Below, piece after piece: positions 20,895-22,670 of a DNA stretch of 64,000 nt. The translations under genes and the position numbers were made by a program. The number at the start of each line of letters is the position of its first letter. Position 1 is the first letter of the stretch. This DNA is from Minisyncoccota bacterium. Its GTDB lineage: Bacteria > Patescibacteriota > Minisyncoccia > Phycocordibacterales > UBA9973. Location of the stretch: contig JBAZYS010000001.1 of assembly GCA_041659205.1 (NCBI GenBank), forward strand, positions 54,090 to 118,089. The letters are read 5' to 3'. The notes under the pieces were generated by a model. That model had not been told where the DNA came from, made no database searches, and saw nothing but the letters and a program-made list of their open reading frames with translations.

Positions 20895-22670
20895 TTATTT
20901 TTTACTTTTTATTTCTTCTAAGAACTTCGAGAGAAGTTCTTCTTTTGAAATTTGGCCGAGTTGACCAGCGCCTGCCTGCGCAGGCAGGTCACGGGACTCC
21001 AGAGTGACTTTTTTAGCTTCGATTTCTTTATCACCGATAACTACCCAGTAAGGCATTTTATTGTTTTTAGCATCACGAACTTTTCCACCAAGGTTGCCAT
21101 CACTGTCATCTAATTCTGCACGAATGCCGTTCTCTTTTAATAGATTGAAAATTTCCTTTGCATATTCATTATGATTTTCTCGCACTGGGATTACTTTTAC
21201 TTGTACAGGTGAAAGCCAGAGAGGGAAGGCGCCTGCATAGTGTTCTATTAATATTCCCATAAACCTATCAGGGGAACCGATGATTGCACGGTGTATCATG
21301 ACTGGAGTTTTTTCTTTACCGTCACTGTCCATATACGTTAATTTAAATCTCTGTGGCATGATTAAATCAAGTTGAATTGTAGAAATCTGCCACTCCCTAC
21401 CCAAAGAATCCTTTGTGATTATATCCATTTTAGGTCCATATATTGCAGCTTCACCTACAGCTTTTTCGTATTCAATTTTATTATCATTCAATATATCTTC
21501 AAGAAGTTTTTGAGATTGTTCCCATACTTCAGGGCTGCCTAGATATTTTTCTGGCTTTTCTGGATCCCAAAGAGAAAGCCTAACCTTGTAGTCCATTTTG
21601 TAAATATCAAGAGCTTTTTTGACTACCACTAGCACACTTTCAAATTCATTCTTAATTTGATCTTCTCTGCAGAATGTGTGACCGTCATCTTGGGCAAAGC
21701 ATCGTAATCTTGTTAAACCACTTAATTCTCCTGGTCTTTCGTCTCTATATAAATTCGCAAAGTCAGAATATCTAATAGGTAAATCACGATAACTTCTTGG
21801 CCTAGAAGCATAGATTTGAGTGTGCTGCGGGCAGTTCATTGGTTTCAAGAAGAAATCTTCTTCACTGTATTGTGATCGGACAGTAAGCATGTCCTCTTTA
21901 TATTTGTCATAGTGGCCAGATATTTTAAATAACTCTGCTTTGTTAAAGTTTGGGGTATGAACTTCTCCAAAACCAAGTTCCATATTCAACTCTCTAGAAA
22001 AATTAATGATTGCATTGCGTATTATGTTTCCTTTTGGGGTAAACATTGGCATTCCACTTCCAATTAAATCAGAAAATACGAGCAAATCTTGTTCTTTGGC
22101 TATTTTTCTGTGGTCTCTCTTTATCGCTTCCTCACGTTGCGTTACATAAGCATCCAATTCATCTTTTGTTTCGAAAGCGAGGCCGTATATACGAGTGAGC
22201 ATTTTATTTTTTTCATCTCCACGCCAATATGCTCCAGCGACACGGTCGAGTTTGAAAGATTCAGGATCTATTTCTACGCTAGGGTGTTCTAGGTGTCCAC
22301 CACGACATAAGTCAGTAAACCCTCCACAAGTATAAGTAGTGATTTTTTCTCCACGCTCTGCAATCTCATTTATCAATTCAGTTTTATATTCATTTTTGCC
22401 GAAGAATTTAAGAGCTTCTTCTTTAGTTACTTCTTTATGTTCCCAGTCTGTCCATTTGGGTAAAATCTTACGCATTCTATCTTCAATTTTTTTTAAATCA
22501 GTATCAGCTACTTTTGCACCAAGAAAATCAATATCATAATAAAATCCATTGTCTACATCAGGCCCGAGAGTGAGCTTAATATTATCAAATTTATATATTT
22601 CCCCGACAGCGGCTGCCGTTAAGTGGGCTAAGGTATGCCTTAAATTATGTAGTTTTTCATTTTTTTCCAT
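20895..22670 (-). CDS. thrS: threonyl-tRNA synthetase (lacks N-terminal TGS domain)
   Basis: The SAD motif is HTLAHLTAAAV. The class II core and the anticodon-binding C-terminus are present. The C-terminus carries the palindrome-encoded peptide LPAQAGAGQLGQ. Confidence 0.9.
   Translation of the reverse strand: MEKNEKLHNLRHTLAHLTAAAVGEIYKFDNIKLTLGPDVDNGFYYDIDFLGAKVADTDLKKIEDRMRKILPKWTDWEHKEVTKEEALKFFGKNEYKTELINEIAERGEKITTYTCGGFTDLCRGGHLEHPSVEIDPESFKLDRVAGAYWRGDEKNKMLTRIYGLAFETKDELDAYVTQREEAIKRDHRKIAKEQDLLVFSDLIGSGMPMFTPKGNIIRNAIINFSRELNMELGFGEVHTPNFNKAELFKISGHYDKYKEDMLTVRSQYSEEDFFLKPMNCPQHTQIYASRPRSYRDLPIRYSDFANLYRDERPGELSGLTRLRCFAQDDGHTFCREDQIKNEFESVLVVVKKALDIYKMDYKVRLSLWDPEKPEKYLGSPEVWEQSQKLLEDILNDNKIEYEKAVGEAAIYGPKMDIITKDSLGREWQISTIQLDLIMPQRFKLTYMDSDGKEKTPVMIHRAIIGSPDRFMGILIEHYAGAFPLWLSPVQVKVIPVRENHNEYAKEIFNLLKENGIRAELDDSDGNLGGKVRDAKNNKMPYWVVIGDKEIEAKKVTLESRDLPAQAGAGQLGQISKEELLSKFLEEIKSKK
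20971..20988. repeat. perfect 18-bp GC palindrome cctgcctgcgcaggcagg inside thrS 3' region
   Basis: Same family as 23134-23151 and 41091-41110. Confidence 0.75.

What the first reader, a model, noticed from the sequence alone, without database searches (positions are those of the whole stretch)
20971..20988. Second family of GC-rich palindromes CCTGCC(TG)C...GCAGGCAGG in thrS, nusB and an intergenic site
Three copies of a near-perfect 18-20 bp palindrome occur in 64 kb of AT-rich DNA. They are cctgcctgcgcaggcagg in the thrS 3' end (20971-20988, encoding LPAQAGAGQ on the - strand), cctgccagtgcaggcagg in the nusB 5' end (23134-23151, encoding LPVQAG), and cctgcctgccggcaggcagg 5 nt after the rpsP stop (41091-41110). 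The two coding copies lie where I recall orthologues being variable (ThrS C-terminal tail, NusB N-terminal region). This is consistent with tolerated in-frame insertion of a small palindromic element. The intergenic copy has no downstream T-run, so it is not a canonical terminator.
Basis: seen in the sequence. Interest (0 to 1): 0.7.

Follow-up and report, generated by a model that had tools for sequence, protein, structure and literature searches.

The report
Tiny mobile palindrome inserted inside genes
Three copies of an 18-20-base GC-rich perfect palindrome in this candidate-phyla-radiation bacterium are recent insertions, two of them adding six amino acids to essential proteins, and the same sequence turns up unchanged in many bacterial phyla and phages with no known way of moving.

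Summary
Only the third coordinate is off by 2 nt (41093-41112). The window comes from a Candidatus Paceibacterota (CPR) genome.

The thrS and nusB copies are clean 18-nt in-frame insertions (LPAQAG, LPVQAG). Both are absent from the two closest relatives.

The palindrome belongs to a large family. Its arms are CCTGCCTGC/GCAGGCAGG, with 0-2 central bases. A truncated scan of species genomes found it in 120 loci from more than 10 phyla, including six cultured Bacteroidota. It also occurs in 35 viral stretches. Composition-matched control palindromes gave 0-1 hits.

Copies sit in intergenic DNA, tRNA loops, apices of host hairpins, inside each other, and in housekeeping genes. In genes the reading frame is usually LPAQAG or LPAGRQ. 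I found no target duplication, end tag, linked gene, Rfam family or paper.

The same codon boundary in ThrS, NusB and RNase R is occupied in scattered lineages. Some of these carry different forms of the palindrome, so insertion recurs at specific sites.

Best reading: a non-autonomous, REP/RPE-like selfish hairpin. How it moves is unknown. The RAYT genes of related genomes flank other palindromes.

The parts
20971..20988 (.). PAL18, a perfect 18-nt palindrome CCTGCCTGCGCAGGCAGG. It is an in-frame insertion in thrS between codon bases GA|C, adding LPAQAG.
   Evidence: clean 18-nt gap in L164 and L165. (6-residue gap against solved ThrS structures). (hairpin of -7.4 kcal/mol as DNA and -15.9 kcal/mol as RNA).
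23134..23151 (.). PAL18 variant CCTGCCAGTGCAGGCAGG, with 2 substitutions. It is an in-frame insertion in the nusB-NUDIX fusion gene directly after EWDF, adding LPVQAG.
   Evidence: clean 18-nt gap in L164. (pristine 18-mer at the same place in L272 and L273).
41093..41112 (.). PAL20, a perfect 20-nt palindrome CCTGCCTGCCGGCAGGCAGG. It is intergenic, 6 nt after the rpsP stop and just before a TTGAAA-17-TATAAT promoter-like site for the KH-domain gene.
   Evidence: (-9.0 kcal/mol as DNA, -15.5 kcal/mol as RNA, z about -3). It is absent from the rpsP-KH spacers that were read (L164, L273) and no PAL-like palindrome was found anywhere in L007.
20895..22670 (-). thrS (threonine-tRNA ligase, 591 aa), host gene of copy 1.
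   Evidence: P0001 is 100% identical, named threonine--tRNA ligase, Candidatus Paceibacterota.
23075..24025 (+). nusB-NUDIX fusion gene (316 aa), host gene of copy 2.
   Evidence: (Pfam NusB and NUDIX).
40778..41086 (+). rpsP (ribosomal protein S16), upstream neighbour of copy 3.
   Evidence: Orthologous genes carry Pfam Ribosomal_S16.
41213..41560 (+). KhpA-type KH-domain gene, downstream neighbour of copy 3.

Best explanation
The three palindromes are copies of a dispersed family of ultra-short perfect GC-rich palindromes, here called PAL. The family has 9-nt arms CCTGCCTGC/GCAGGCAGG joined by 0, 1 or 2 central bases. It behaves as non-autonomous selfish DNA, as REPs, Rickettsia RPEs and mitochondrial GC clusters do.

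Shown: a copy is added to DNA as a discrete 18-nt block, or as 20 nt plus 1. There is no target-site duplication and only a weak flank preference (-1 is rarely T). Selection then keeps only copies that do no harm. These lie in intergenic DNA, in loops of tRNAs, at apices of existing hairpins, and in protein surface loops. In the checked genes the length is a multiple of three and the frame reads Leu-Pro-Ala-(Gln/Gly-Arg-Gln)-Ala-Gly rather than the Cys/Arg-rich frames. In this genome the thrS and nusB copies are such tolerated 6-residue loop insertions. They were probably gained after the split from the closest sampled relatives. The 20-nt copy landed in the rpsP-KH spacer.

Also shown: particular sites (thrS GA|C, nusB TT|C, rnr GG|N) are hit again and again in separate lineages, so insertion has strong site preference.

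Inferred, not shown: propagation is copy-and-paste through a single-stranded hairpin intermediate. It would be catalysed in trans by an unlinked enzyme (an HUH/Y1-type nuclease is the obvious candidate) or by host replication and repair template switching. Phages carry the element and could move it between hosts.
For: Insertion polymorphism. L164 and L165, the closest relatives, lack all three copies. They show exact 18-nt gaps in thrS and nusB.

Family membership. The central spacers were: none 14, 1 nt 31, 2 nt 81 (79 of them CG), 3 or 4 nt 0. The last class serves as an internal chance control. Flanks are unrelated to each other. The taxa are CPR, Bacteroidota (including isolates of Winogradskyella, Flagellimonas, Robertkochia, Longitalea, Flavivirga and Algoriphagus), Omnitrophota, Planctomycetota, Gamma- and Deltaproteobacteria, Acidobacteriota and others. 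Viral contigs hold 35 stretches with the exact 20-mer, against 1 and 0 for composition-matched palindromes. One real phage (terminase, adaptor) has at least 6 copies.

Selection filter. The 18-mers in ORFs I take to be real genes read LPAQAG (TopA, ComF, RuvX and SecF by my reading of the translations, plus RNase R). The 20-mers read LPAGRQ with one extra base (FtsK and ScpB by my reading, plus RmlB, S6 and RNase R).

Other permissive sites. These include a tRNA-Met variable loop, D-loops of displaced tRNA fragments, apices of a phage's own hairpin repeats, and copies nested in themselves at CCG|G.

Recurrent same-site occupancy. Five scattered leaves of 75 in the ThrS tree carry it. At least 12 of 120 NusB sequences, in at least 8 places in the tree, carry it, always right after EWDF. 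One RNase R site holds the 18-mer in L003 and a 20-mer variant in L273.

Youth or constraint. The 18-mer is identical between window and L008 thrS, and between L272 and L273 nusB. About half of the flanking codons differ synonymously.

Copy-paste. The two copies in L273 share the same 1-mismatch variant.
Against: No mobilising enzyme was found. No protein family recurs next to PAL in about 1.2 Mb of flanking DNA. RAYT-like Y1 genes exist in relatives, but all 80 sampled ones, plus L001 and L005, flank other palindromes of the form N-AGG-N5-6-CCT-N, never PAL.

Twenty-of-twenty identity across phyla is unusual for a selfish repeat and could instead indicate a conserved function.

Scattered presence at identical sites could partly reflect old insertions with repeated precise hairpin loss. 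Degenerate copies exist (LSAQAD, LSAQTG, and L005 CCCGCCGTGGCGGG), and one NusB clade looks vertically inherited.

Copy number per genome could not be measured, because only 8-kb loci were available and the genome scan was truncated.
Confidence: 0.7

Rival explanations
1. PAL is a functional cis-element kept by selection: a binding site for a widely conserved protein (in the manner of parS, CIRCE or NrdR boxes) or an RNA hairpin that stabilises, terminates or processes transcripts. Its appearance inside genes would then be recruitment, not parasitism.
For: The 20-mer is identical in many phyla. Synonymous positions inside PAL do not drift while neighbouring codons do. The window's 20-mer lies 6 nt after a stop codon and folds stably. 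In co-directional spacers, copies tend to lie nearer the upstream stop (median about 75 nt).
Against: There is no consistent neighbouring gene or operon. Copies occur in divergent spacers (18) more often than in convergent ones (12). There is no T-run and no Rfam family. All three sites are empty in the closest relatives. Copies inside pseudo-tRNA fragments and nested in each other make no sense for an operator. A binding site would arise by point mutation, not by discrete 18/21-nt insertions.
Confidence: 0.12
2. The element is a real insertion but an old one. Each hot-spot site was hit once in an ancestor of Paceibacteria. Today's patchy pattern is due to repeated precise deletion of the hairpin by replication slippage, not to repeated insertion.
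For: Degenerate copies at the same sites (LSAQAG, LSAQAD, LSAQTG, MPVQAG; L005 has 5 synonymous changes) show long residence. One NusB clade mixes PAL-bearing and PAL-less members. Perfect palindromes are known from general knowledge to be deletion-prone.
Against: The same RNase R and ThrS sites hold different forms in different lineages: 18-mer against 20-mer+1, and the 21-nt TACCGG variant. These cannot be interconverted by one in-frame step. Pristine 18-mers sit in lineages whose flanking codons are about half saturated at synonymous sites. PAL-bearing leaves are mostly single tips with PAL-less sisters, so this model needs far more losses than the other needs gains.
Confidence: 0.12
3. The palindromes are generated locally by replication template switching (quasi-palindrome completion) at sites that already resemble one arm, rather than being copies of a mobile sequence.
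For: The empty thrS site in L164 reads GCAGGCCAG, close to the right arm GCAGGCAGG. Many empty nusB sites read CTG/TTA CCT GCC (LPA), which equals the left arm.
Against: A full 18-nt block is added, not a 9-nt complement of the native half. Arms end at the same bases whatever the flanks. NusB sites whose native sequence starts K, A, T or S were also hit. Across 334 flanks, arm-like microhomology is rare (3.0% against 0.8% in controls, mostly nested copies). Local generation cannot give the same 20-mer in unrelated contexts.
Confidence: 0.04
4. Artefact: an adapter, linker or assembly chimera junction that was assembled into contigs.
For: It is a constant short palindrome in many metagenome assemblies. 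A few copies lie at contig ends (L049, L055, L010), and there is a tandem array at a viral contig end (L162).
Against: It is present in cultured isolates and in one complete chromosome. The contig names indicate several different assemblers, some of them typical of long-read data. Flanks continue the same gene in frame. The same site carries mutated and variant copies in related genomes from different samples.
Confidence: 0.02

Closest known systems
REP elements and REPtrons (repetitive extragenic palindromes mobilised by RAYT Y1/HUH transposases; Di Nocera et al. 2013, PMC3733652)
   Same: Both are short GC-rich palindromes dispersed in the genome, with no coding capacity and no target duplication. 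Both are occasionally found inside genes, even at the same site in related species. Relatives of this genome carry bona fide REPtrons with 19-31-nt perfect palindromes.
   Different: PAL has no GTAG or CGTC end tag. It is a perfect palindrome of only 18-20 nt. It was never found flanking a RAYT gene. It is identical across phyla, whereas in the lineages sampled here each RAYT gene flanks its own, different palindrome. Two of its 3 copies here are genic.
Rickettsia palindromic elements (RPEs; Ogata et al. 2000, recalled from memory and cited in PMC3733652)
   Same: Both are palindromic repeats inserted in frame into housekeeping genes of a small AT-rich genome, adding tolerated peptide segments.
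   Different: RPEs are about 100-150 nt, carry a CGTC tag and are confined to Rickettsia. PAL is 18-21 nt and pan-phylum.
Mitochondrial GC clusters of yeasts and PstI palindromes of Neurospora mitochondria (the latter from memory; yeast review PMC8811140 was found but not read)
   Same: Both are short GC-rich palindromes scattered in AT-rich DNA. They are found in spacers, next to or in tRNA and rRNA genes, and in frame in protein genes. Their mobility mechanism is unknown and no element-encoded enzyme is known. The Neurospora core is also 18 nt.
   Different: Those are in organelle genomes, have a different consensus, and are lineage-restricted.
MITEs
   Same: Both are non-autonomous inverted-repeat elements.
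   Different: MITEs are 70-300 nt with terminal inverted repeats and target-site duplications. PAL has neither a spacer nor duplications. No separated half-sites with cargo were seen.
parS/CIRCE-type conserved palindromic protein-binding sites
   Same: Both are palindromes of 16-20 nt conserved across phyla and sometimes located inside coding regions.
   Different: Those have fixed genomic positions and gene associations. PAL has none and arrives as a discrete insertion.

Membership tests
REP / REPtron (RAYT-mobilised) | Short (about 20-40 nt) palindromic sequence repeated in the genome | tested here: met
   Three copies of 18-20 nt in 64 kb, with 0 expected. Further copies occur in relatives.
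REP / REPtron (RAYT-mobilised) | Conserved GTAG (or CGTC) tetranucleotide at one end | tested here: not met
   Flank matrices and k-mer enrichment over 167 copies show no GTAG or CGTC. There is only a weak GA, CG or AA preference at -2/-1.
REP / REPtron (RAYT-mobilised) | A cognate RAYT (Y1_Tnp) gene flanked by the same palindrome | tested here: not met
   No PAL lies within 1.5 kb of 80 RAYT-like genes from metagenomes. Only 1 of about 155 PAL loci has a weak Y1-like ORF, 1.6 kb away and not flanked by PAL. Caveat: complete genomes could not be read.
REP / REPtron (RAYT-mobilised) | Predominantly extragenic, downstream of genes | tested here: inconclusive
   Two of 3 window copies are genic. 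In other genomes most 20-mers are intergenic, with no convergent-spacer bias.
Rickettsia RPE | In-frame insertion into functional ORFs | tested here: met
   thrS and nusB. RNase R, RmlB and S6, plus ORFs I read as TopA and FtsK, in other genomes.
Rickettsia RPE | Length about 100-150 nt with a family consensus and CGTC tag | tested here: not met
   The inserted block is exactly 18 or 21 nt. There is no CGTC tag.
MITE | Terminal inverted repeats separated by internal sequence, and target-site duplication | tested here: not met
   Arms abut, with 0-2 nt between them. Direct repeats of 2 nt or more at the borders occur in 8 of 124 copies, and of 3 nt or more in 3 of 124.
Intrinsic terminator | GC-rich hairpin followed by a T-run at a gene's 3' end | tested here: not met
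   There is no T-run after 41112. Copies also occur in divergent spacers and inside genes.
Conserved operator / centromere-like site (parS, CIRCE type) | Constant association with a particular gene, operon or chromosomal region | tested here: not met
   All-against-all clustering of 2,501 ORFs around 126 copies gives no family in more than 5 loci.
Known structured RNA family | Match to an Rfam covariance model | tested here: not met
   Only tRNAs were found in the window and in 18 PAL loci.

The most novel reading that the evidence does not exclude
PAL is a new class of mobile DNA: a 20-nt, enzyme-less (or trans-mobilised by an unrecognised, widely distributed activity) 'minimal mobile hairpin'. 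It is shared unchanged by CPR bacteria, Bacteroidota, Planctomycetota, Omnitrophota, Proteobacteria, Acidobacteriota and their phages. It homes repeatedly to the very same codon boundary of essential genes (ThrS, NusB, RNase R) in independent lineages. This implies a target-recognition mechanism that is not visible in the primary sequence.
Probability: 0.3. Interest if true: 0.88.

Novelty: new variant of a known kind. Interest (0 to 1): 0.72.

Why it matters
If the reading is right, the smallest dispersed palindromic element described so far (18-20 nt) remodels essential proteins in genome-reduced CPR bacteria. It is shared across phyla that share almost no other mobile DNA.

It would offer a tractable case for three open questions. 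How do REP-like hairpins move without a linked transposase? Why are certain codon boundaries hit again and again? How often do selfish hairpins create protein loop insertions, tRNA extra arms and extended RNA hairpins?

In practice, LPAQAG and LPAGRQ peptides and the 20-mer are simple markers for annotating such insertions. Unrecognised, they could mislead alignments, phylogenies and structure predictions of CPR proteins.

Tried and rejected
1. Terminator role. Rejected: there is no T-run, and copies lie in divergent spacers and inside genes.

2. Cognate REP of the RAYT family present in relatives. I fetched 80 RAYT loci. All flank N-AGG-N5-6-CCT-N palindromes, none PAL.

3. A linked gene. ORF clustering around 126 copies found none. 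GIY-YIG ORFs are adjacent in only 3 loci.

4. Footprint or solo ends of a larger transposon. Solitary half-sites are almost all degenerate full copies. No separated inverted pairs with cargo were seen.

5. Target-site duplication or a target motif. There is none beyond a weak purine preference at -1/-2.

6. Microhomology or template switching as a general rule. Not supported.

7. Splicing-like removal. Deleting a copy restores a long ORF in only a few loci, mostly GC-rich and uncurated, and the copies in checked genes read through in frame.

8. Rfam and literature searches for the 20-mer, half-site, peptide and topic. Nothing on this element.

9. Cultured-phage and plasmid collections. Only noise-level partial matches were listed.

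10. The window's source contig could not be retrieved by exact-protein look-up, so no genome-wide census was possible.

11. The two 3-mismatch matches in the window are native motifs.
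Full report
**Observation.** The three palindromes exist as quoted: 20971-20988 CCTGCCTGCGCAGGCAGG, 23134-23151 CCTGCCAGTGCAGGCAGG, and 41093-41112 CCTGCCTGCCGGCAGGCAGG. No dinucleotide-preserving shuffle of the window yields a single match to CCTGCC-N0-10-GGCAGG, or to either consensus with up to 3 mismatches. A hairpin scan of my own shows they are essentially the only GC-rich perfect hairpins in 64 kb of 36% GC DNA. They fold stably as DNA (-6 to -9 kcal/mol) and as RNA (-11 to -16 kcal/mol).

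**Organism and genes.** The ThrS protein is 100% identical to a record named threonine--tRNA ligase of a Candidatus Paceibacterota MAG, from a contig of 239,165 nt. The host genes are thrS (20895-22670, - strand), a nusB-NUDIX fusion (23075-24025) and the rpsP/KH-domain gene spacer.

**The coding copies are insertions.**
- Of the 120 closest ThrS proteins, about 112 read ...TLESRD-xGQLGQ.... The window reads ESRD-LPAQAG-AGQLGQ.
- Solved ThrS structures have a 6-residue gap exactly there. I take this to be a turn of the C-terminal anticodon-binding domain.
- The two closest genomes I could fetch are L164 (NusB 95% identical) and L165 (91%). Both have clean 18-nt gaps. In thrS they read cgc ga(t/c)|gc(a/t) gg(c/t) cag, where the window reads cgt gac[CTGCCTGCGCAGGCAGGC]gct ggt caa. 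In nusB, L164 reads tgg gac ttc|ttg ccc, where the window reads ttc[CTGCCAGTGCAGGCAGGC]ttg ccc. L165 has no PAL at that position, but its spacer there is divergent. Neither has any PAL-like sequence in 12-21 kb.
- The rpsP-KH spacer of L164 and L273 lacks the 20-mer, and no PAL-like palindrome was found in L007.

**A very large family.**
- The spacer distribution was: none 14, 1 nt 31, 2 nt 81 (79 of them CG), 3 nt 0, 4 nt 0. The two empty classes are an internal control for chance.
- For a uniform-composition 20-mer, about 0.5 hits would be expected in the whole 596-Gb collection.
- Flanks are unrelated to each other.
- Hosts include about 37 CPR genomes (Paceibacteria, WWE3, Saccharibacteria, Uhr-, Davies-, Doudna-, Roizman- and Beckwithbacteria, Peribacteria). 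There are about 30 Bacteroidota, with six cultured isolates and one complete chromosome. Other hosts are Omnitrophota, Planctomycetota, uncultured Gamma- and Deltaproteobacteria, Acidobacteriota and more. By record title, none is Bacillota, Actinomycetota, Cyanobacteria or Alphaproteobacteria.
- IMG/VR viral contigs hold 35 stretches with the exact 20-mer and 25 with the 18-mer. Two composition-matched 20-nt palindromes gave 1 and 0 hits.
- One 29.5-kb contig with at least 6 copies encodes a terminase and an SU10-type adaptor, so it is a real phage.
- GenBank phages and PLSDB plasmids gave only noise-level partial matches in the rows listed. Rfam has no family. No paper in the searchable library contains the 20-mer, the LPAGRQ peptide, or the half-site in a relevant context.

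**Where copies are tolerated.**
- Most 20-mers are intergenic, with no bias toward convergent spacers: 59 co-directional, 18 divergent, 12 convergent. This argues against a terminator role.
- In ORFs that I take to be real genes, 18-mers read LPAQAG. From my reading of the translations these are TopA, ComF, RuvX and SecF, plus RNase R. The 20-mers read LPAGRQ with one extra base, making 21 nt: FtsK and ScpB by my reading, plus RmlB, ribosomal protein S6 and RNase R.
- RmlB shows about 8 extra residues at that point relative to the solved Salmonella enzyme. The S6 ORF matches solved bS6.
- Among the 18-mers in viral contigs, LPAQAG is the commonest frame but not the only one: 9 of the 15 copies in long ORFs, and those ORFs are uncertain in GC-rich DNA. 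The other two frames would encode Cys/Arg-rich peptides.
- Copies also sit in the variable loop of a phage tRNA-Met, which ARAGORN calls as a 92-nt tRNA.
- They sit in the D-loop of displaced tRNA 5' fragments next to GIY-YIG ORFs.
- They sit at the apex of a phage's own hairpin repeats, where other copies of that repeat carry different apices.
- They sit nested inside another PAL at CCG|G.

**Anatomy of insertion.**
- There is no target-site duplication. Border repeats of 2 nt or more occur in 8 of 124 copies.
- There is no GTAG or CGTC tag.
- There is only a weak preference: -1 is rarely T, and GA, CG or AA are about 2-fold enriched.
- Flanks are 3-10-fold enriched for direct, inverted and short tandem repeats. 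PAL therefore often lies in repetitive spacer DNA.
- Arm-like microhomology in the target is rare overall.
- Solitary half-sites are nearly all degenerate full copies. Nothing suggests a larger parent transposon.
- No protein family recurs in the neighbourhood.

**Hot spots.**
- On a neighbour-joining tree of 75 ThrS sequences, the five PAL-bearing ones are isolated tips, each with PAL-less neighbours.
- At least 12 of 120 NusB sequences carry a PAL-derived hexa- or heptapeptide. They lie in at least 8 separate places of the tree, always directly after EWDF, whatever the next native residue is (L, S, T, A or K).
- At the DNA level, window and L008 thrS share an identical 18-mer although 10 of 16 flanking codons differ synonymously. 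L272 and L273 nusB share the pristine 18-mer while 5 of 10 flanking codons differ.
- The RNase R site AAA GG| holds the 18-mer in L003 and a 20-mer variant (+21 nt) in L273.
- L273 has a second copy of the same one-mismatch variant (CCTGCCTACCGGCAGGCAGG) elsewhere in the same gene.
- L007 thrS and one NusB carry a 21-nt TACCGG-type form.
- Different forms at one site, and identical variant copies at two sites in one genome, argue for independent, copy-and-paste insertions with strong site preference.
- Degenerate copies (LSAQAD, LSAQTG, L005 CCCGCCGTGGCGGG) show that some insertions are old. Precise loss probably also occurs.
- What defines a hot spot is not visible in the sequence. I consider this the main unexplained point.

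**Mechanism.**
- Shown: discrete insertion, family membership, a reading-frame and location filter, recurrence at fixed sites, and carriage by phages.
- Inferred: propagation through a single-stranded hairpin intermediate by a trans-acting activity.
- The obvious candidates are RAYT-type Y1/HUH nucleases. They are present in relatives (L001, L005, L165) and are abundant in CPR metagenomes. But each flanks its own lineage-specific palindrome of form N4-10-AGG-N5-6-CCT-N4-10. None of 80 sampled loci has PAL.
- PAL is therefore REP-like in behaviour but fails the defining REP/REPtron features I could test.
- Host replication or repair template switching remains possible, but the flank statistics do not support it as a local generator.

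**Rivals.**
- A conserved functional site would explain the cross-phylum identity and the lack of synonymous drift. It does not explain the absence from nearest relatives, the lack of gene association, or the copies in pseudo-tRNA fragments and in each other.
- An artefact is excluded by isolates, several assembly types, in-frame continuity, and mutated copies at orthologous sites in different samples.

**Limits.**
- The genome scan was truncated.
- Only 8-kb loci were readable, so copy number per genome and the full taxonomic range are unknown.
- ORF calls in GC-rich loci are crude.
- The trees are neighbour-joining on single proteins.

**Verdict.** The element is best filed as a new, ultra-short, tag-less variant of the short palindromic selfish repeats (REP, RPE, mitochondrial GC clusters). 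Its unusually wide distribution and its site-specific recurrence are not explained by any known mechanism.

Noticed in passing
window 3422-3464 (ligA), 42272-42314 (trmD), 62160-62202 (tgt); also L164:11367, L007:342, L228:2908: This is the '35-nt element'. A conserved core CTCAGGATCTCCTGCTNNGCAACGTCGACCATTCGC lies inside three unrelated genes, in the same reading frame in ligA and tgt. In every copy it is bracketed by a different 6-12-bp inverted repeat, for example ATGCTTTT/AAAAGCAT, AGAAGCA/TGCTTCT, AAAAATATTCTC/GAGAATATTTTT. That gives a conserved loop with a covarying stem. The trmD copy is shared with relatives. There is no Rfam match. It contains CCTGCTGCGCA, one base short of the PAL18 core.
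   Followed up: partly
L001:5144-5860, L005:6249-6976, L165:14419-15081, L166-L245: REPtrons in Paceibacterota and CPR metagenomes. Y1_Tnp (RAYT-like) genes are flanked at about -45 and +2 to +40 by lineage-specific perfect palindromes of form N-AGG-N5-6-CCT-N. Often a third copy lies inside the RAYT ORF about 150 nt from its start.
   Followed up: partly
NusB orthologues P0202, P0209, P0170, P0152, P0167, P0193, P0128 (same site as window 23134): The position after EWDF also holds other, longer inserts (LPARNASHSDAGGP, LLASPKLSEGG, LLASPSQGGSAEK...). They look like translations of other GC-rich repeat elements, so this site is a general insertion hot spot.
   Followed up: no
L064:2100-2480 and L160:495-700: A displaced 5' fragment of tRNA-Lys, carrying PAL in its D-loop, is followed by a small GIY-YIG ORF. 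In L064 an intact tRNA-Lys follows. This suggests a GIY-YIG cassette that inserts into tRNA-Lys and brings a replacement 5' half.
   Followed up: no
L162:3927-4142 (end of viral contig IMGVR_UViG_3300025106_000007): At least ten tandem 21-nt units CCATGCCTACCGGCAGGCAGG, a PAL variant, run to the contig end. This could be a terminal repeat or an assembly collapse.
   Followed up: no
L149:545-10549 (phage contig): A phage-specific hairpin repeat GGGTGCCCCATCCTTG...CAAGGGTGGGTC has interchangeable apices: CGGTTTTTG, TCCGCCGCGGCGGA, or PAL20. A 1.35-kb segment is bracketed by 80-nt inverted repeats that each contain PAL.
   Followed up: partly
window 41113-41145: A near-consensus sigma-70 promoter TTGAAA-17 nt-TATAAT lies immediately downstream of the intergenic palindrome and upstream of the KH-domain gene.
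   Followed up: no
window 31587-35449 and 32646-40412: Paralogous genes (ORFs 31593-32975, 33060-34982, 35393-38206, 38265-40442) share similar signal-peptide starts and a 300-nt C-terminal repeat. This looks like a tandem family of secreted proteins.
   Followed up: no
thrS N-terminal part, window 21400-22670, against L164 and L165: The genomes closest by NusB (95% and 91%) have ThrS only 68-69% identical overall, but nearly identical in the C-terminal 75 residues. This suggests recombination or replacement of the 5' part of thrS.
   Followed up: no
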